Source: a virus (Duplodnaviria; Heunggongvirae; Uroviricota; Caudoviricetes). Taken from it: 40,859 bases of DNA. The position numbers were made by a program, and so were the translations under genes. Below the pieces are notes generated by a model, which saw nothing but the letters and a program-made list of their open reading frames with translations, searched no databases and was not told where the DNA came from. Positions 2,766 to 40,859 of the stretch are shown here, one piece after another (position 1 is the first letter of the stretch; every line of letters begins with the position of its first letter). The stretch lies in the IMG/VR virus record IMGVR_UViG_2597489870_000008. The stretch is one strand, 5' to 3'.

Positions 2766-2793
2766 CACTGTTTATCCATACAGTTAAAAATAA

Positions 2794-2813
2794 TACTGTA
2801 TACAAACACAGTA
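2794..2813. promoter_or_regulatory. LexA (SOS) box TACTGTATACAAACACAGTA upstream of the dinI-like gene
   Basis: Perfect CTGT-N8-ACAG palindrome with TA-rich centre, 14 nt upstream of the dinI-like ATG; a possible -35 TTGACA lies at 2762-2767. Confidence 0.6.
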
Positions 2814-2826
2814 TAGAGGGACTTTT

Positions 2827-3075
2827 ATGCGTATTGAAATCTGCATAGCCAAAGAAAAAATGACTAAAATGCCAACCGGTGCTGTGGATGCGTTAAAGGA
2901 AGAATTAACCCGACGCATCAGTAAACGTTATGACGATGTAGAGGTGATCGTAAAAGCCACCAGCAACGATGGCCTTTCTGTTACACGCACCGCAGATAAG
3001 GATTCTGCAAAAACTTTTGTTCAGGAGACTCTGAAAGATACCTGGGAATCTGCTGACGAGTGGTTTGTTCACTAA
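2827..3075 (+). CDS. dinI: DinI-family DNA damage-inducible protein
   Basis: 82-aa ORF ([11 protein letters not shown]…[15 protein letters not shown]) with the overall pattern of E. coli DinI (MRIEV…ETWESADDWFV); GAGGG RBS; preceded by a LexA box. Confidence 0.8.
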
Positions 3076-3218: not shown

Positions 3219-3782
3219 TTATTTCGTTTGAATGCCAGTAACAGGAAATCGTTTATATAGGGTTGATAGCCCAACGTTATAGATACGTGCAACATAACGC
3301 CGTGATTTCCCTGCCGCTATGAGCGCTCCCATCTGTTGCCACTGCTCGTCGCTAAACTTCGGTCTACGCCCACCAATCCGGCCTTTGGATCTGGCAATAG
3401 CCAAACCAGCTAAAGTTCGCTCGCTATTCAAATCAGATTCATACTGCGCAGCAGAAAGAATATTACGGAAATTATAGCGACCACTTGCTGTTTTCAGGTC
3501 TACGCCATCTGTAATACTCCGAAAATTAACACCTTTTTCGTGCAGATTTTGAAACATCAATAGCGCATGCAGCACATTTCTCCCTATCCGATCTAACTTC
3601 CAGACAATCAACTCATCTCCACTTTTCATCACCGTAATTAATTCCTTTAACACAGGGCGATTAGCTGTTCTGCCACTGGCATATTCTTCATAAATTCGCT
3701 CACAGCCAGCTGACTCAAGTGCAAGACGTTGCAACTCTGTATCCTGATGATTTGTTGATACACGAACATACCCGTAAATCAT
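3219..3782 (-). CDS. Serine recombinase, DNA invertase of the Gin/Pin/Cin/Hin family
   Basis: 187-aa ORF beginning MIYGYVRVSTNHQDTELQ with GRTANRPVL, resolvase/invertase catalytic domain plus C-terminal HTH; sits next to an invertible tail-fibre segment. Confidence 0.85.
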   Translation of the reverse strand: MIYGYVRVSTNHQDTELQRLALESAGCERIYEEYASGRTANRPVLKELITVMKSGDELIVWKLDRIGRNVLHALLMFQNLHEKGVNFRSITDGVDLKTASGRYNFRNILSAAQYESDLNSERTLAGLAIARSKGRIGGRRPKFSDEQWQQMGALIAAGKSRRYVARIYNVGLSTLYKRFPVTGIQTK

Positions 3783-3787
3783 GAGTG

Positions 3788-3814
3788 CTTCTCCTGTTGT
3801 AAAAACAGGAGAAG
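3788..3814 (-). promoter_or_regulatory. 27-bp perfect palindrome (CTTCTCCTGTT-gtaaa-AACAGGAGAAG) that contains the invertase Shine-Dalgarno sequence
   Basis: 11-bp perfect inverted repeat with a 5-nt spacer directly upstream of the invertase ATG; the AGGAG lies in one arm, so a hairpin would sequester the RBS. Confidence 0.4.
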
Positions 3815-23864: not shown

Positions 23865-24185
23865 CTAAATCAGATCACCAATGTATTTTGCACTAATTGA
23901 AATTTGCATCTGAGGCATTCCGACCACAGATCCATTTAACAGGTAATCACGTCCTCGTTCCTGCAAAGAAAGACTCAATTCAAAGTTCTTTACCCCAGGG
24001 AAAACCGAGGTGACATTTAAATCATGCTGCGATACGCGCAGAATAAGTTGGCTACCGTCAATTTTTCCCTGATACGTAAAACCAAAATCTCCGCCGTTTA
24101 CTGCATTGTTTTTGACAACTACGGTACCATTACCAAAATCACGTTGATTGCTTCTGAAAACAACAAAATAGATACCATCTTTCAT
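23865..24185 (-). CDS. GrlR-like protein (moron between the lysis and packaging modules)
   Basis: 106-aa AT-rich ORF; its N-terminus MKDGIYFVVFRSN…GTVVVKNN…GGDFGFTYQGKI parallels GrlR (MKDGIYSIIFISN…GILIKNG…GGD…YQG); identity rests on recalled sequence. Confidence 0.5.
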   Translation of the reverse strand: MKDGIYFVVFRSNQRDFGNGTVVVKNNAVNGGDFGFTYQGKIDGSQLILRVSQHDLNVTSVFPGVKNFELSLSLQERGRDYLLNGSVVGMPQMQISISAKYIGDLI

Positions 24186-26089: not shown

Positions 26090-26168
26090 TTAGCCCCCTC
26101 TTAATTGCTGTTGGTCCTCTCAGATATGAGGGGAAGGGATCTTAATGACAGTCTGTTTATTATTTCAG

Positions 26169-26426
26169 TCAAATACTACCCTGTTGATGATTTCTCAGAA
26201 GCGAACTTGACTCCCAGGGGAAACTCAACTTTCCGTTAAAACCACCAGCAGACATTCGTTCAATTTCCACAGAAATATCACTGAGCCGTTCTTCAAGCTC
26301 TGCTTTTTCTTTTACCAGACGGTTATAGCGGCTTAGATGAAGCTTTTGCTGCTCCAGCCAGTCTTCAAGCTGTTCAACAGTCATACCAGGGTTAAAAAAA
26401 TATGGCTGCTGCTTTTCGCCCTGCAT
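26169..26426 (-). CDS. Hypothetical late protein (85 aa from the Met at 26426)
   Basis: GGAGG 7 nt upstream of the ATG at 26426; first ORF after the putative late terminator; predicted coiled-coil; no family recognised. Confidence 0.45.
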   Translation of the reverse strand: MQGEKQQPYFFNPGMTVEQLEDWLEQQKLHLSRYNRLVKEKAELEERLSDISVEIERMSAGGFNGKLSFPWESSSLLRNHQQGSI

Positions 26427-29168: not shown

Positions 29169-29558
29169 TCAGGCGGCTGCACCCGCCGTTTTCTCGTACT
29201 TACTGATAGTGATCTCGACCTTCCCTTCCGGGATAACCGGTCCCCACTCCACCAGCATTCTTTTCACCTGGCTGTCGTCTTCCCACACACCCGCGTGGGT
29301 CAGGGCGTCAAACAGCGCCTTGTTATAGTTGTCCAGATCGCGGATCCGGTTATCCGGAGGAAACAACACGATCTCCACTGAAGCAGGTGCCGACGTTGGT
29401 TTTGGCAGACGACGTAACTGCTCAACTATTGCTGCACACGCCGCGCTCTGGAATTTGCGCCCCGCCGCGCTTATCAGGCTCTTACCTGCAAACGCCCCTT
29501 TGTTGGGGTGTCGCCAGTACGTGTTCACGCTGGGCGGAAAAGGCAGTATTAGCTTCAT
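29169..29558 (-). CDS. rusA: Holliday junction resolvase RusA
   Basis: 129-aa ORF starting MKLILPFPPSVNTYW… with the acidic catalytic region DLDNYNKALFDAL. Confidence 0.85.
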   Translation of the reverse strand: MKLILPFPPSVNTYWRHPNKGAFAGKSLISAAGRKFQSAACAAIVEQLRRLPKPTSAPASVEIVLFPPDNRIRDLDNYNKALFDALTHAGVWEDDSQVKRMLVEWGPVIPEGKVEITISKYEKTAGAAA

Positions 29559-29881
29559 ACTTTCAGCTCCCTCTCATGTAACCAGTGGGCTGCACGCAGC
29601 CTGGCGTTTTCCTCACCGGCAAGCAGTGAGCGGATAATCCCGACCGCCTCGCTGTCGTCGTCCTTCACCGCGGTATGAAGCGTGATGCCCCGGGCCACGC
29701 CACGCTTTATCGTGATGACGCCTTTTTTCTCCAGTGCGCGAAGATGCTCCACCGCTGCATTCACTGAACGGTATCCCAGCATGGTTGCCACCTCCTGATT
29801 GGTTGGCGGGAAACCACGTTCTTTCTGATAAGAAATCAGCATATCCAGCACCTGCTGCTGGCATTGAGTTAACGTCGTCAT
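29555..29881 (-). CDS. LexA N-terminal DNA-binding-domain protein (no peptidase domain)
   Basis: 108-aa ORF; MTTLTQCQQQVLDMLISYQKERGFPPTNQEVATMLGYRSVNAAVEHLRALEKKGVITI aligns by eye with the LexA N-terminal domain ([58 protein letters not shown]). Confidence 0.65.
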   Translation of the reverse strand: MTTLTQCQQQVLDMLISYQKERGFPPTNQEVATMLGYRSVNAAVEHLRALEKKGVITIKRGVARGITLHTAVKDDDSEAVGIIRSLLAGEENARLRAAHWLHERELKV

Positions 29882-30531
29882 GCCGCCATCTCCCTGACCA
29901 GTTTTTCCGCCTGCTGGCGAACCTGCGCCAGAAACGCCTCACCACATGCCTCAAGTTCATCGCGCCCGATGTAGCTGATTGCCGGTCCCTTCCAGGTCTT
30001 GTCAAAAACAGCAATAGCACCAGCGAAAAAAGCTCCTGTCGGTACCTGCTTCTCGTCTTTCGGGATAAACCAGACAGGCAGTTCAAAACCAATACGCCCG
30101 CGAATAAAAGCAATATGATCTGCATCTTCCGGCCACCACACTTCGCTGGTGGCAGCTTTGATCAGGAAAACATAGCGCCCGCCCTTATCACGCATGGCAC
30201 TGGCATGTTTCATGATGTAACGCATGCCGGTGATGTATTGCCCCTCATGCTGACTGGCGCGGCTGTATGGGGGATTACCAAAGGCAGCACCTTTAAGCTC
30301 CGCAAGACGTTCTGACCAGTCATGCGCCAGCGCGTTGTCTTCCGCCGTGTAATACGCGGCACATTTGGCGTTATCACCGTCAGTGAACAGATCCAGAACA
30401 AACGGGCCAAACAGGGTGTTAATTCCCCAGAAAATGTTGTCCGGCGTGCGCCACTGATCGCCCACTTCCTTCAGTTCATGGGCTGGTTTGTTCCGCAGTT
30501 CCACCAGCGCCTGGCAATATTTATTACTCAT
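29878..30531 (-). CDS. Phage N6-adenine DNA methyltransferase (Dam-like)
   Basis: ORF with the NPPY motif (AFGNPPYSRA) characteristic of amino-methyltransferases; start at the Met at 30531 overlapping the upstream stop. Confidence 0.75.
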   Translation of the reverse strand: MSNKYCQALVELRNKPAHELKEVGDQWRTPDNIFWGINTLFGPFVLDLFTDGDNAKCAAYYTAEDNALAHDWSERLAELKGAAFGNPPYSRASQHEGQYITGMRYIMKHASAMRDKGGRYVFLIKAATSEVWWPEDADHIAFIRGRIGFELPVWFIPKDEKQVPTGAFFAGAIAVFDKTWKGPAISYIGRDELEACGEAFLAQVRQQAEKLVREMAA

Positions 30532-31025
30532 TAAGCCCCCACGTAATTCCCTGACAGATACCACTCTTCACCCGATGCAGCGCGCTTGCTGCTTTTCCGT
30601 AAGCACCGCTCACGACGCGCCAGAAAATTGTTTCGTTCTGGCTGGGAGTGGCTTTCACGGAATGCCGCCATCCACACGGTTGCAGCACGACGGTATAAGC
30701 CCCTGGACTCCAGTTCTTCCGCCTGGCGGGTCAGGCACAAAATCACACGGGGATCGTTAGTGCCGACATAGAAATTGCGCACAGATCTGGTTTCACGAAC
30801 TGGTTGTGGTTCCGGTTCCTGCGCTCTCTCAGTCAGGCGCGGGAAATGTCTGCGTGTATCTCCTTCACAACGGTGAGCCACACGCCCACTCTGACGTAAC
30901 TTGCTTGCTGACTGCAGAACGCGCTGCCGTGAGTAACCGGCAAAAGCATCCGCAATATCTCCGGAAGTACAGCCCGGATGGGCTTCAATGAATTTCTGAA
31001 CGTCATTCAAAAGACTCATGCTCAC
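30531..31025 (-). CDS. Regulatory protein with a PerC/Pch-like C-terminal region
   Basis: 164-aa ORF; C-terminal AEELESRGLYRRAATVWMAAF…RRERCLRKS matches the PerC-family signature as I recall it. Confidence 0.45.
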   Translation of the reverse strand: MSMSLLNDVQKFIEAHPGCTSGDIADAFAGYSRQRVLQSASKLRQSGRVAHRCEGDTRRHFPRLTERAQEPEPQPVRETRSVRNFYVGTNDPRVILCLTRQAEELESRGLYRRAATVWMAAFRESHSQPERNNFLARRERCLRKSSKRAASGEEWYLSGNYVGA

Positions 31026-31963: not shown

Positions 31964-31972
31964 GACCGACCT

Positions 31973-32311
31973 CTATTTCCCTGAATTTACGACGAAACTG
32001 TTCGAGCGGGCTGAAGCACTCATGCTCATAGCCTTCGCGGAGGTAGATAACCCGTTGTGTTTCCGGTTCCCAACGAATGACTCTGACGGGCACTCCGTAG
32101 TGATCTTTGAACCAGCGGTTAACTTGTTGCAAAGGACTGTCTCCTTCTGCCGGTTGAAATCACCCACAGCCCACTCTGCAAATCTGTGGGTTACAATTTC
32201 CCTGTCACCTGGTACATTCACTGCATAGCAATACTCCACCTTCGCTTTTCCACCCGGTACAGGAAGCGCAATCAGTTGCGAGCGACGGTAGTGTGTTGTT
32301 AAACTGTTCAT
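31973..32311 (-). CDS. Hypothetical early protein (CII position, function unknown)
   Basis: 112-aa ORF whose ATG overlaps the stop of the upstream gene; ends 10 nt before the initiator gene. Confidence 0.5.
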
Positions 32312-33148: not shown

Positions 33149-33178
33149 AATGTAGGATATCCAACATGTCAATGTCAA
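33149..33178 (-). promoter_or_regulatory. PR-like promoter (TTGACA-N18-TACATT on the minus strand) overlapping an 18-bp operator ATGTAGGATATCCAACAT
   Basis: The -35 and -10 hexamers lie on the minus strand with the palindromic operator at 33150-33167 across the -10; the same module recurs inverted downstream of cI. Confidence 0.5.
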
Positions 33179-38484: not shown

Positions 38485-39519
38485 TCAGAAAAATATTTCA
38501 GCTTTTTTACCATCAAATACCCACTCGCTGGATAAGATTTTCATATTGCTAGCATAATTAAAAGTAAATTCTATCATTATCTTTTGTTTATCATTCGGAT
38601 AGTCGAAAACCTCTAATAAAAAGAAATCTCCTATAATCGAATAACAATGTATGCAACAGTTAGATAAATAACAATCACTGTCTCTGTCCTTAACAGTACC
38701 AATTCCAGCCGCCCAGAGTTTTTTGTTATCCACGTGAGTGGCTATTAGTTCTTTGACATCAGAATCACGAAAAGATAAAAACTTGACGAATACGGACTTA
38801 CTGTAAACAGAAATACCTCTGATAATTCCAGTTCGTTTCTTACATCTCCAGCATTTTGTAACTCGCGATTCTATTTTTGCAGTCAGCACATCCCCAACCT
38901 TTGGGAACCATAATAGCTTTCTGGCAAAAACACCCGCGATAAACTCCCTGACACTAATCCCAAACTGTGGTAGATACAAGTCCCCATTTTCATTCTGACG
39001 CACACCAAAAACAGGTAAATCGTAGCTATGGTATATATTCCCACCATGCTCTTTACTTCCTTTACGTAACTTTCGCAACCACAGTGCACGGACTCCTGAT
39101 GCGATATATCGTTTTTGACGTTCTTTAAATTCATCGTCTTTTTGCGGTGATAACTGTACTTCGAAAACCAGTTTCGCGTTATTTCTGGTACAAAACACAT
39201 CGGCAATCCATTGTTCTCCTGCTGGGGTCGCCCCTTGTTTTTCGGTAGTAACTGACCAGCCAGCATCACTGGCTAATTTTGCGATTAAGAATTTGAGATA
39301 TAAATGTTCTGCGCTTTCTTTCGCATACAGGCAATCGCTTTTGGATTTATGTGCAAAGTAATAGTTATTAAGTTTGCTTGTTTTAGGTATACCAGGCTGA
39401 CCACAGCACGACATAAACAAAGACTGGCTTTTATATGTCTGTTTAAGATATTCCCATTCCTGAGAGTTAAATTCAAAAGAATGAATTTCTTTTCCGTTAA
39501 GTGACGCTTTTAGTGGCAT
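38485..39519 (-). CDS. CoiA-like (competence protein CoiA family) putative nuclease
   Basis: 344-aa AT-rich ORF; N-terminal CCGQPGI…NYYFAHKSKSDCLYAKESAEHLYLKF fits the CoiA signature (Cys pair, FAH, ESxEH) as I recall it. Confidence 0.55.
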   Translation of the reverse strand: MPLKASLNGKEIHSFEFNSQEWEYLKQTYKSQSLFMSCCGQPGIPKTSKLNNYYFAHKSKSDCLYAKESAEHLYLKFLIAKLASDAGWSVTTEKQGATPAGEQWIADVFCTRNNAKLVFEVQLSPQKDDEFKERQKRYIASGVRALWLRKLRKGSKEHGGNIYHSYDLPVFGVRQNENGDLYLPQFGISVREFIAGVFARKLLWFPKVGDVLTAKIESRVTKCWRCKKRTGIIRGISVYSKSVFVKFLSFRDSDVKELIATHVDNKKLWAAGIGTVKDRDSDCYLSNCCIHCYSIIGDFFLLEVFDYPNDKQKIMIEFTFNYASNMKILSSEWVFDGKKAEIFF

Positions 39520-39546
39520 TCATGCTACCTGTATTTACCCTCCCAG

Positions 39547-39587
39547 CGAGGGAAATTAAGATATCAAAAAACCATTATCTGGTGAAA
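39547..39587. repeat. Right 41-bp terminal inverted repeat flanking the CoiA-like gene
   Basis: Reverse complement TTTCACCAGATAATGGTTTTTTGATATCTTAATTTCCCTCG; lies 28 nt upstream of the CoiA-like start codon. Confidence 0.6.
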
Positions 39588-39657
39588 CGCAGTACCATCA
39601 CACTTAAGTGAACGACATTATGTCTAAAGACATTTTAAAAAAATCACCACCTATGAA

Positions 39658-39831
39658 TCATACTGCTTTGCGACGACGAAGCTTACCCTGCTGCTCTTTA
39701 CCAGAGACAGTAACGTGAGTGAACGCATTAGGAGCAGCCTTCATCAGAACTTCAACAGCAGCACCCATACCTGCGAATGCTTTCATTGTGTCGAACTTAA
39801 GCTGTGGCTTGGTTGCTTTTTGATCTTCCAT
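39658..39831 (-). CDS. Small hypothetical protein (57 aa) downstream of the candidate toxin gene
   Basis: Hand-found ORF below the track cutoff: MEDQKATKPQLKFDTMKAFAGMGAAVEVLMKAAPNAFTHVTVSGKEQQGKLRRRKAV, with GGAG 8 nt upstream. Confidence 0.4.
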   Translation of the reverse strand: MEDQKATKPQLKFDTMKAFAGMGAAVEVLMKAAPNAFTHVTVSGKEQQGKLRRRKAV

Positions 39832-39870
39832 AGAAAACTCCAGAAGCTATACCGAAACAATTCCTGTTGT

Positions 39871-40290
39871 TTACTCATCATCAATAGATGATACGCAATA
39901 TTTATTTTTAAATTTAAGGTTCTTTGGCGTAACTTCATCAGATATATCAAAACCGTCCAGAATTCTATTGAATGTAGCTTCTGGCATATCATCATGAACA
40001 GAAATCTCACCCGATCGCTGCTTTCTAACCATGTTATCCACTCGCCAAATTATAGCTTCAGCGTAAACAACATAACTTGGATGCTTGATAAAGCGATGAT
40101 CACCGGAATTCAAAACGCAAGACGGATCGTGGGGGACACCATCCTTGATACTAGAAATATTAACAACTAAAACACAATAACAATCGTTAACGGGGTAATA
40201 AACAGGATCATTACAAATCACATGAAGATGATTGCATGGTCCAGTTGGGGCAAGCACAGTTCCTTTCCTGTATGGCTGATAATCCGTCAT
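39871..40290 (-). CDS. Uncharacterised 139-aa protein translationally coupled to a Panacea-domain gene; candidate PanT-type toxin or defence effector
   Basis: ATG overlaps the stop of the upstream DUF4065 gene (ATGA); AT-rich; Cys/His-rich (…GPCNHLHVICNDP…DPSCVLNSGDHRFIKHPSYV…); no known family recognised. Confidence 0.55.
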   Translation of the reverse strand: MTDYQPYRKGTVLAPTGPCNHLHVICNDPVYYPVNDCYCVLVVNISSIKDGVPHDPSCVLNSGDHRFIKHPSYVVYAEAIIWRVDNMVRKQRSGEISVHDDMPEATFNRILDGFDISDEVTPKNLKFKNKYCVSSIDDE

Positions 40291-40859
40291 GATAATTGCA
40301 AAGAAAATTCCTTAAGTTTCTGAGATTCTTCCATTTTGCCAATTATACGATTAGCCTCATCCTCGCTTTTACCCTCACTGATCAACATTTCTTTCAGGTC
40401 TATAGGCTTACGAGAATTGCCAGGATCGTGCCACTCTGGACAAACGCTTTCTAAATGCGTCATATTTGCGAGATCAAATCGGTTCATATGCCCATACCGA
40501 GAATAGATTTCATCTAAAATCCGGATATCTGCACGACTCAATTCATCAAAGACCTCGTCTGCATCCATTTCCCTCGGATCTGAACGCAACGATACATTAT
40601 GCCCGTTCGTCTCTATCAAGTTGTACCAGTAGTCACCAATGCCTTCAGCCTTACCGCGAATCAAGTTCAGCGTATTCGACATGACTGGTCCAAATTTCAT
40701 AGAGTAAAGGCTATCTTCGCCGATCATCCTGCCATGCTTCAAAATCGACTGGCGGTTAGACAGATAGAGCAGCTTCATCAATTTCAGATATGCCATGCGC
40801 CCACCTCTCTTAAGAAGTAGGTATGCAGCCATTTGAGCTACTTTTTCTTCGCAAAACAT
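40287..40859 (-). CDS. Panacea-domain (DUF4065, SocA/GepA-like) protein; candidate antitoxin (the N-terminus may lie at or beyond the window edge)
   Basis: …MAAYLLLKRGGRMAYLKLMKLLYLSNRQSILKHGRMIGEDSLYSMKFGPVMSNTLNLI… matches the DUF4065 pattern as I recall it; the ORF reaches the last base of the window. Confidence 0.6.
   Translation of the reverse strand: MFCEEKVAQMAAYLLLKRGGRMAYLKLMKLLYLSNRQSILKHGRMIGEDSLYSMKFGPVMSNTLNLIRGKAEGIGDYWYNLIETNGHNVSLRSDPREMDADEVFDELSRADIRILDEIYSRYGHMNRFDLANMTHLESVCPEWHDPGNSRKPIDLKEMLISEGKSEDEANRIIGKMEESQKLKEFSLQLS

What the first reader, a model, noticed from the sequence alone, without database searches (positions are those of the whole stretch)
29555..29881. 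Phage-encoded LexA DNA-binding domain lacking the autocleavage domain
The 108-aa product aligns along its length with the N-terminal DNA-binding domain of LexA, including the recognition-helix region, but has no S24 peptidase domain. Such a protein could occupy SOS boxes without being cleavable and so decouple some genes from SOS induction. A canonical LexA box is present in the same prophage upstream of the dinI-like gene at 2794-2813.
Basis: partly seen in the sequence, partly recalled or inferred. Interest (0 to 1): 0.6.

Follow-up and report, generated by a model that had tools for sequence, protein, structure and literature searches.

The report
Phage LexA-like DNA-binding protein, uncleavable
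A common E. coli prophage gene encodes a copy of the DNA-binding head of the SOS repressor LexA, with a small helical tail in place of the self-cleaving domain; databases already annotate it, but its DNA targets and role are untested.

Summary
ORF 29555-29881 (-) encodes a 108-aa protein whose residues 1-69 are a LexA winged-helix domain (Pfam E=3e-19; 43% identity to E. coli LexA; model fits the LexA-DNA crystal structure at 0.8-0.9 Å). It has no S24 peptidase. Two strong SOS boxes, not one, lie upstream of the dinI-like gene.

The gene is real (pN/pS 0.08). It is translationally coupled between dam and rusA in the early-right operon of an SfV-like prophage of ETEC H10407. It is not new: near-identical copies occur in 2233 of 5426 complete E. 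coli genomes and in SfV, SfII, mEp460 and Stx2 phages, annotated "LexA family transcriptional regulator".

I found three further things:
- A conserved C-terminal helical hairpin replaces S24.
- Gene order is conserved down to 38% identity.
- A sister clade lies behind canonical SOS boxes in Gifsy-like dinI-antirepressor operons.

The SOS-box idea is only partly supported. Four of five published LexA contact residues are kept. Glu44 is never kept, and positions 44 and 45 vary across the family. No function has been published; the closest studied analogue, GIL01 gp6, evolved its own site and activates transcription.

The parts
29555..29881 (-). CDS of the 108-aa LexA-like protein (RefSeq WP_000210163.1, 'LexA family transcriptional regulator')
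   Evidence: pN/pS is 0.077 over 52 distinct alleles.
29675..29881 (-). Residues 1-69: LexA-type winged helix-turn-helix (H6-22, H28-35, H40-52, strands 56-58 and 66-68)
   Evidence: Pfam PF01726. AF2 model. Foldseek to 3jso, 1jhh and 1lea at rmsd 0.8-1.1 Å.
29723..29767 (-). Residues 39-53, recognition helix SVNAAVEHLRALEKK (LexA: [15 protein letters not shown])
   Evidence: Ungapped alignment to LexA. Contact residues S39, N41, A42, E44 and E45 are taken from PMC3091678.
29573..29665 (-). Residues 73-103: C-terminal two-helix hairpin that replaces the S24 domain; inferred dimerisation element
   Evidence: AF2 helices H73-88 and H93-103, pLDDT about 90. The hydrophobic pattern A79, V80, L82/83, L86/87, A93, A97, W/F100, L101 is conserved down to 38% identity.
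29888..29893 (-). Shine-Dalgarno-like GGGAGA, 6 nt upstream of the ATG and inside the 3' end of dam
   Evidence: Read directly from the sequence.
29878..30531 (-). Phage N-6-adenine methyltransferase (dam); its stop overlaps the lexA-like start (ATGA)
29169..29558 (-). rusA Holliday-junction resolvase; its start overlaps the lexA-like stop (ATGA). It is the conserved downstream neighbour in every family context examined.
33149..33178 (-). pR-like promoter (TTGACA-18-TACATT) between the CI operators. It is the presumed source of the transcript that carries the gene.
   Evidence: The link to the gene's transcript is an inference.
2766..2785 (.). SOS box 1 (CACTGTTTATCCATACAGTT), in the spacer of the dinI-like promoter (TTGACA at 2762-2767)
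2794..2813 (.).
2827..3075 (+). dinI-like gene, the only gene in this window preceded by strong SOS boxes

Best explanation
[quoted passage not shown] An ancestral lambdoid phage of Enterobacteriaceae captured the N-terminal winged-helix domain of a proteobacterial LexA. The S24 protease/dimerisation domain was replaced by a ~35-residue helical hairpin, which I infer provides dimerisation.

In this SfV-like prophage the gene is a delayed-early gene. It is translationally coupled between dam and rusA and lies upstream of Q. It is therefore probably made only after CI is inactivated or after infection, which is when host LexA has been or is being destroyed.

My preferred mechanism is that the dimer binds LexA-type dyads with CTGT-like half-sites. 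The targets would be the phage-borne SOS boxes at the dinI-like promoter and probably at least a subset of host SOS boxes. This would restore repression in a form that RecA* cannot remove. Specificity is likely relaxed or shifted, because Glu44 is lost.

Shown: domain identity, absence of S24, gene order, purifying selection, and presence of SOS boxes. Inferred: dimerisation, timing of expression, and the DNA targets.
For: - Domain identity.
- Four of the five LexA contact residues listed in PMC3091678 are retained. S39, N41, H46, K53 and R64-G65-I66 are (near-)invariant across the family down to 38% identity.
- The recognition helix differs from host LexA at only 2 of 9 positions (SVNAAVEHL against SPNAAEEHL). 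GIL01 gp6, which has its own operator, differs from Bacillus LexA at about 5 of 8.
- A LexA DNA-binding domain fused to a foreign dimeriser works as a repressor at LexA-type operators (PMC7102963).
- Apart from the CI operators, the only exact inverted repeats or CTNT-N6-10-ANAG dyads with operator-like features in non-coding prophage DNA are the two SOS boxes. No other multi-copy dyad was found.
- In the sister clade, 45 of 47 distinct variants lie downstream of a canonical SOS box in a dinI / antirepressor-like / lexA-like unit. This mirrors the way lexA sits behind its own boxes.
- Strong purifying selection: pN/pS 0.077.
Against: - Glu44 is Val here and is never Glu in 24 non-redundant family members (A, V, F, L, T or Y). 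It is Glu in 8 of 9 full-length LexAs recovered in the same search.
- Position 45 is also variable (E, L, G, D, I, T), while the SOS boxes in those same prophages stay canonical. The boxes therefore look like host-LexA sites, not sites co-evolving with the phage protein.
- The position equivalent to LexA Arg28 is the most variable in the domain.
- The dimerisation module differs from LexA's, so half-site spacing may differ.
- GIL01 gp6 shows that a truncated LexA homologue with similar identity to its host LexA (44%) can acquire a new site and become an activator.
- No binding or expression data exist for this protein.
- From general knowledge: 41% of sequenced E. coli carry the gene, including SOS-inducible Stx lysogens, so it cannot be a strong constitutive SOS repressor in lysogens.
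Confidence: 0.4

Rival explanations
1. A phage-specific transcription factor with its own operator, like gp6. The LexA-derived domain has drifted to a different sequence. The protein would activate or repress a phage promoter (for example in the Q / late region) or a particular host gene, independently of the SOS regulon.
For: GIL01 gp6 sets the precedent. Glu44 is lost family-wide, and positions 40, 44 and 45 are hypervariable while backbone-type contact residues are conserved. That is the pattern expected of diversifying specificity. The gene holds a conserved position just upstream of rusA-DUF968-Q in all contexts examined. The full-length LexA-type protein P0190, with V44/T45, suggests such substitutions accompany paralogue divergence.
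Against: No candidate operator was found: there is no conserved or multi-copy dyad other than the CI operators and SOS boxes in the window. The window protein's helix 3 stays much closer to LexA than gp6's helix does to its host LexA. My searches would miss single, imperfect or non-palindromic sites.
Confidence: 0.35
2. An accessory DNA-binding subunit of the recombination/replication module (Dam, RusA, DUF968) rather than a transcription factor. It might target or modulate the resolvase or bind structured DNA.
For: The gene is adjacent to rusA, often with overlapping start and stop codons, in every lineage examined from 38% to 100% identity.
Against: In some prophages the pair is separated by a small ORF or an opposite-strand insert (L003, L007, L012, L013), and the Klebsiella-type locus L153 appears to lack rusA. 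Conservation of the LexA-specific recognition residues S39, N41 and A42 argues for sequence-specific major-groove reading. Gene order in nin-type regions is often conserved without any physical interaction (general knowledge).
Confidence: 0.1
3. A substrate or decoy of the SOS proteolytic machinery. The 'LAG' at residues 87-89, aligned with LexA Ala84-Gly85, would be cleaved in trans by LexA or CI C-terminal domains, or the protein would titrate RecA*.
For: BLASTP extends the alignment through the hinge, pairing SLLAGE with RVAAGE.
Against: Close relatives have LLANEE and LLVGEE. Family-wide, position 88 is A in 13 of 24 and position 89 is G in 6 of 24. The segment is predicted to be helical with pLDDT about 90, not the strand-loop that LexA presents to its active site.
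Confidence: 0.03

Closest known systems
Host LexA repressor (E. coli; TIGR00498; PDB 1jhh, 3jso)
   Same: The N-terminal winged-helix domain is homologous: 43-50% identity, rmsd 0.8-0.9 Å. The contact residues S39, N41, A42 and E45 and the wing R64-G65-I66 are the same.
   Different: There is no S24 Ser/Lys protease or dimerisation domain, and no conserved Ala-Gly cleavage site. Glu44 is replaced by Val and Arg28 by Asn. A family-specific C-terminal helical hairpin is present. The protein scores below the TIGR00498 cut-off (70.8 against 110.95). It is encoded in a phage lytic operon and has no boxes of its own.
GIL01 (Bacillus thuringiensis tectivirus) gp6, a truncated LexA homologue that activates late promoter P3 (Fornelos et al. 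2018, PMC6182141)
   Same: It is a phage-encoded LexA DNA-binding domain without a cleavage domain, about 44% identical to its own host's LexA. It is encoded among early genes upstream of the late genes, in a phage that also carries SOS boxes.
   Different: It shows no detectable sequence similarity to the window protein, which indicates independent capture from a Firmicute LexA. At 66 aa it has no C-terminal hairpin. Its recognition helix has diverged strongly and it binds GaCACAnnTGTGaC. The function of the E. coli family is untested.
[quoted passage not shown] PMC7102963)
   Same: The architecture matches: a LexA DNA-binding domain, a short linker and a heterologous dimerisation module. These fusions repress LexA-type operators only when dimerised.
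   Different: They are artificial and keep the authentic or deliberately mutated (LexA408) recognition helix. The dimerisation modules are unrelated to the phage hairpin.
Other S24-less LexA-domain proteins of phages (BFVD hits; PHROG 362, 24920, 3502)
   Same: These are small (65-150 aa) viral proteins with the LexA winged-helix fold. PHROG 362 covers the whole protein.
   Different: Most are uncharacterised and come from unrelated phage groups (Mycobacterium, Tectiviridae, uncultured). Few seem to share the C-terminal hairpin.

Membership tests
LexA repressor (TIGR00498 equivalog) | N-terminal LexA-type winged helix-turn-helix (PF01726) | tested here: met
   PF01726 E=2.9e-19 over the full profile. 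Foldseek to 3jso and 1lea at rmsd 0.8-1.1 Å.
LexA repressor (TIGR00498 equivalog) | C-terminal S24 peptidase/dimerisation domain with the Ser119-Lys156 dyad | tested here: not met
   The protein ends at residue 108 and has no PF00717 hit. TIGR00498 matches only positions 1-91 of 203 and scores 70.8, below the 110.95 cut-off. The next gene is rusA, overlapping by 4 bp.
LexA repressor (TIGR00498 equivalog) | Conserved Ala84-Gly85 self-cleavage site in a strand-loop region | tested here: not met
   A88-G89 is present in the window protein but replaced by A-N or V-G in close relatives. It varies across the family and the region is predicted to be helical.
LexA repressor (TIGR00498 equivalog) | Base-contacting residues of helix 3 (S39, N41, A42, E44, E45) | tested here: inconclusive
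   Four of five are retained, with E44 changed to V. E44 is never retained in the family but is kept in 8 of 9 full-length LexAs.
LexA repressor (TIGR00498 equivalog) | Binds CTGT-N8-ACAG SOS boxes and is inactivated by RecA* | not testable with these tools
   This needs EMSA, ChIP or reporter assays. Boxes do exist in the prophage.
PHROG 362 ('transcriptional repressor') | Full-length match to the family profile | tested here: met
   E=6e-59, residues 1-108 against profile positions 1-106 of 106. The family name comes from annotation, not from a tested function.
gp6-type truncated LexA homologue of tectiviruses (GIL01) | Sequence homology to gp6 | tested here: not met
   BLASTP finds no alignment with E<=100. 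The two align only through their shared LexA fold.
gp6-type truncated LexA homologue of tectiviruses (GIL01) | LexA DNA-binding domain without a cleavage domain, encoded in an early phage operon | tested here: met
gp6-type truncated LexA homologue of tectiviruses (GIL01) | Own palindromic operator at the late promoter; activates transcription | tested here: inconclusive
   No candidate dyad was found near Q or the late region, except a weak SOS-like box at 26151-26170. Activity cannot be tested here.
Gifsy prophage irsA (the gene after the antirepressor in the LexA-controlled dinI operon, PMC3121763) | Sequence identity with irsA of Gifsy-1 | tested here: not met
   irsA was located using the deletion primers from that paper. 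It encodes an unrelated 200-aa protein (L186 4397-4999). Only the position and the leader sequence are shared with sister-clade lexA-like genes.

The most novel reading that the evidence does not exclude
A RecA-proof LexA surrogate, carried by about 40% of sequenced E. coli (including Stx2 phages) and by Gifsy-like prophages of Klebsiella, Enterobacter and Salmonella, re-closes SOS-box promoters once its phage has committed to lytic growth. It would silence host SOS functions and LexA-controlled rivals, such as colicin lysis genes and the 186- or Gifsy-type antirepressor operons of co-resident prophages. In the sister clade it would turn its own dinI-antirepressor operon into a self-limiting pulse.
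Probability: 0.25. Interest if true: 0.7.

Novelty: new member of a known kind. Interest (0 to 1): 0.4.

Why it matters
If the protein binds SOS boxes, a very common prophage gene would be a natural, uncleavable LexA. It could reshape the SOS response, mutagenesis, colicin release, and the induction of co-resident prophages, including Shiga-toxin phages, during lytic growth. If instead it has its own operator, it is a second, independently evolved case, after GIL01 gp6, of a phage turning the host's SOS repressor into a private regulator. Comparing the two would show how LexA specificity drifts. Either way the question is cheap to settle experimentally, and the family is widespread, conserved and under strong selection, yet I found no functional study of it.

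Tried and rejected
1. Trans-cleavage or decoy idea, based on 'LAG' aligning with LexA A84-G85. Rejected: the motif is not conserved and the region is predicted helical.

2. Equating the sister-clade gene with Gifsy 'irsA', for which deletion data exist. Rejected: irsA was located through the published primers and is an unrelated 200-aa protein.

3. Search for an alternative operator, using inverted repeats in the early and late regions, exact 5-6-mer dyads in all intergenic DNA, CTNT-N6-10-ANAG dyads and multi-copy dyads across the prophage. Only CI operators, replication-origin iterons, terminators and the two SOS boxes turned up.

4. Own promoter. No consensus-like promoter lies directly upstream. 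The 'dam promoter' annotated by the SfV authors is weak, and its -35 is altered here.

5. PADLOC gave only a marginal CARF hit (E=3.6e-4, 18 bits), which I regard as noise.

6. Whole-protein fold analogues. MarR/MepR, BlaI/MecI and Rv1846c matched only at rmsd 8-12 Å, so they are not informative.

7. Ten full-text literature searches found no functional study of this protein. It appears only in catalogue mentions, for example pham 237 in Stx phages (PMC8136144). The Zhang et al. 2010 LexA-DNA paper was not available. Contact residues therefore come from PMC3091678, and the roles of individual residues come partly from memory.

8. The first IMG/VR scan returned only 97-100% identical copies, so a second scan seeded with the sister clade was needed.

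Full report
**1. What is there**

The ORF at 29555-29881 (minus strand) exists as described: ATG start, 108 codons. It has a GGGAGA Shine-Dalgarno 6 nt upstream. Its start overlaps the stop of a phage dam gene (ATGA), and its stop overlaps the start of rusA (ATGA).

Domain evidence:
- Pfam places a complete LexA_DNA_bind domain on residues 1-65 (E=2.9e-19) and finds no S24 peptidase.
- NCBIfam's LexA equivalog matches only its first 91 of 203 positions and scores below cut-off (70.8 against 110.95).
- BLASTP against E. coli LexA gives 43% identity over residues 1-90.
- phmmer against PDB LexA chains gives an ungapped match over residues 2-69.
- An AlphaFold2 model (pLDDT 84) has the LexA topology H6-22, H28-35, H40-52 and a two-strand wing. 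It superposes on LexA in its DNA complex (3jso) at 0.8-0.9 Å over 67-68 residues with 50% identity.
- The last ~35 residues form two confident helices (H73-88 and H93-103, pLDDT about 90) that have no counterpart in LexA.

**2. Where it is**

The window is identical to E. coli ETEC H10407 (NC_017633.1, 4725389-4684531, reversed). It covers an SfV-like prophage inserted in dusA. Read along the early-right operon, the gene order is:

cI (with S24), cro, YmfL/CP76, DUF4222, O-like, PerC-like, dam, lexA-like, rusA, KilA-N, DUF968, Q, lysis genes.

The gene is thus a delayed-early gene of the lytic programme. No consensus-like promoter lies directly upstream. Timing of expression is an inference.

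**3. Is it a real, functional gene**

Yes.
- Near-identical copies occur in 2233 of 5426 complete E. coli genomes. They also occur in 50 deposited phage genomes, including SfV orf42, SfII, SfIV, mEp460, cdtI and Stx2a/Stx2c phages.
- Across 52 distinct alleles, pN/pS is 0.077.
- RefSeq already names it 'LexA family transcriptional regulator'. Phage records call it 'LexA DNA binding domain protein' or 'LexA-like protein'. PHROG 362 covers it end to end.

The observation itself is therefore not new. Ten full-text searches found no functional study, only catalogue mentions such as pham 237 in Stx phages (PMC8136144).

**4. The family**

An exhaustive HMMER search found relatives of 105-135 aa at 38-52% identity that share both the winged helix and the C-terminal hairpin. 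All named members come from Enterobacteriaceae prophages: Cronobacter, Enterobacter, Cedecea, Klebsiella, Salmonella and Citrobacter.

In all nine contexts inspected, the gene sits directly upstream of rusA. Sometimes one tiny ORF or an opposite-strand insert intervenes. DUF968 and Q follow, and a DNA methyltransferase is often upstream.

The tail keeps a conserved amphipathic pattern: A79, V80, L82/83, L86/87, A93, A97, W/F100 and L101. Replacement of LexA's dimerising S24 domain by this hairpin suggests a dimerisation module, but that is an inference. BFVD shows that S24-less LexA-fold proteins of 65-150 aa recur in many unrelated phages.

**5. SOS boxes**

They are the only CTGT-N8-ACAG matches in the window. 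They straddle the dinI-like promoter: box 1 lies in the spacer after TTGACA at 2762-2767. Nothing else in the window exceeds a score of 9.

**6. A sister clade behind SOS boxes**

In relatives with an N-terminal extension (the P0137, P0171, P0219 and P0240 types), a canonical SOS box precedes the transcription unit that holds the gene. A scan of IMG/VR gave 47 distinct variants. Of these, 45 have a box scoring 17-30 between 440 and 2800 bp upstream, most at -620 to -700. The two exceptions lack upstream sequence.

The unit reads: terminator, promoter with box, dinI-like gene, small ORF (phrog_1813), lexA-like gene, phrog_1212, rusA, DUF968, Q. The repressors of the three prophages whose immunity region was inspected (L007/L008, L012) lack S24.

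This is the architecture of the LexA-controlled dinI-antirepressor operon of Gifsy prophages (PMC3121763). I tested whether the Gifsy gene after the antirepressor, irsA, is this family. It is not. When located with the paper's primers, irsA encodes an unrelated 200-aa protein. The published 'no phenotype' for irsA deletions therefore does not apply here.

**7. Does it read SOS boxes?**

For:
- The published LexA contact residues are S39, N41, A42, E44 and E45 (PMC3091678). The window protein keeps S39, N41, A42 and E45, and also H46, K53 and R64-G65-I66.
- Its helix 3 differs from LexA at 2 of 9 positions. GIL01 gp6, which binds its own site, differs from Bacillus LexA at about 5 of 8.
- Engineered proteins made of a LexA DNA-binding domain and a foreign dimeriser repress LexA-type operators (PMC7102963).
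- Apart from CI operators, origin iterons and terminators, the only dyads in non-coding prophage DNA are the two SOS boxes.

Against:
- Position 44 is Val here and is A, V, F, L, T or Y in 24 non-redundant family members. It is never Glu. By contrast, 8 of 9 full-length LexAs recovered in the same search have Glu44.
- Position 45 is also variable (E15, L5, G, D, I, T), and the Arg28 position is the most variable in the domain.
- In the sister clade the upstream boxes remain canonical while helix 3 changes (AAE, VAL, VLL, ALT). The boxes are therefore best read as host-LexA sites.
- GIL01 gp6, 44% identical to its host LexA, binds GaCACAnnTGTGaC and activates the late promoter.

**8. Verdict on mechanism**

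I commit, at 0.4, to a RecA-proof LexA surrogate. It would be made during lytic development, dimerise through its hairpin and bind LexA-type dyads with relaxed or shifted specificity. Its first targets would be phage-borne SOS-box promoters.

The main rival, at 0.35, is a gp6-like private regulator with its own, still unidentified operator. Minor rivals are an accessory of the RusA module (0.1) and a cleavage substrate or decoy (0.03). The decoy idea is rejected because the 'LAG' motif is not conserved and is predicted helical.

The gene is common in SOS-inducible lysogens, so it cannot be a strong constitutive SOS repressor. This point rests on general knowledge and was not tested here.

**9. 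Novelty and score**

The annotation is already known. Phage-encoded truncated LexA homologues are a known kind, and one of them, gp6, has been characterised. This enterobacterial family is an independent capture: it has no detectable similarity to gp6, it carries a distinctive C-terminal hairpin, and I found no functional data for it. I rate it a new member of a known kind, interest 0.4. It is not surprising to a specialist, but it is widespread, under strong selection and directly testable.

Noticed in passing
window 26151-26170 (with promoter-like element 26159-26187, minus strand): A weak SOS-like box, GACTGAAATAATAAACAGAC (score about 9), overlaps the -10 of a promoter-like TCAACA-17-AATAAT just upstream of the holin gene. 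It resembles the strong box TACTGTAAAAATAAACAGTG at the start of the late-region DNA methyltransferase in SfV (L015 34170), mEp460 (L016 41021) and L012 (10739). It may be a degenerate remnant.
   Followed up: partly
L016 (mEp460) 31970-31989; L009 836-855: Very strong canonical SOS boxes (scores 25-27) lie inside the coding sequence of cI-like S24 repressor genes. I have no explanation.
   Followed up: no
L007 5960-6000; L012 7955-8000; L013 5622-5665; Gifsy-1 primers in PMC3121763: A conserved leader (CTGGCCTGAACAACCAGC.ACCTGCTGCGCCACGGAGA..ACC-ATGGCGCA) lies between the antirepressor-like ORF and the next gene in Gifsy-like prophages. It is shared whether the next gene is lexA-like or irsA. 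It could be a recombination junction or an RNA element.
   Followed up: partly
L013 4975-5262: A 95-aa ORF with a Pfam RecA_C hit sits directly behind two overlapping SOS boxes (4907 and 4923), in the position where other prophages have dinI. It could be a RecA C-terminal-domain mimic.
   Followed up: no
P0129, P0131, P0156: Some proteins carry two tandem LexA DNA-binding domains and no S24, so they may act as single-chain pseudo-dimers.
   Followed up: no
L012 11794-13390: The late region of a Salmonella prophage carries a Cas1-like gene next to an AcrVA2-like gene.
   Followed up: no
window 23865-24185, 30531-31025, 38485-40859: The prophage carries GrlR-family and PerC-family regulator homologues. 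At its far end it has CoiA-like and Panacea-domain genes, which are possible virulence-regulation and defence cargo.
   Followed up: no
window 3790-3812: A perfect 8-bp inverted repeat, TCTCCTGTTGTAAAAACAGGAGA, lies between the invertase-type recombinase (3219-3782) and the tail-fibre segment. It contains CTGT-N7-ACAG. It is probably a terminator or an inversion site rather than a LexA site.
   Followed up: no
P0190: A full-length, S24-bearing LexA-type protein has V44/T45 in helix 3, like the phage family. It is probably a LexA paralogue with a different operator and would make a useful comparator for the effect of losing Glu44.
   Followed up: no
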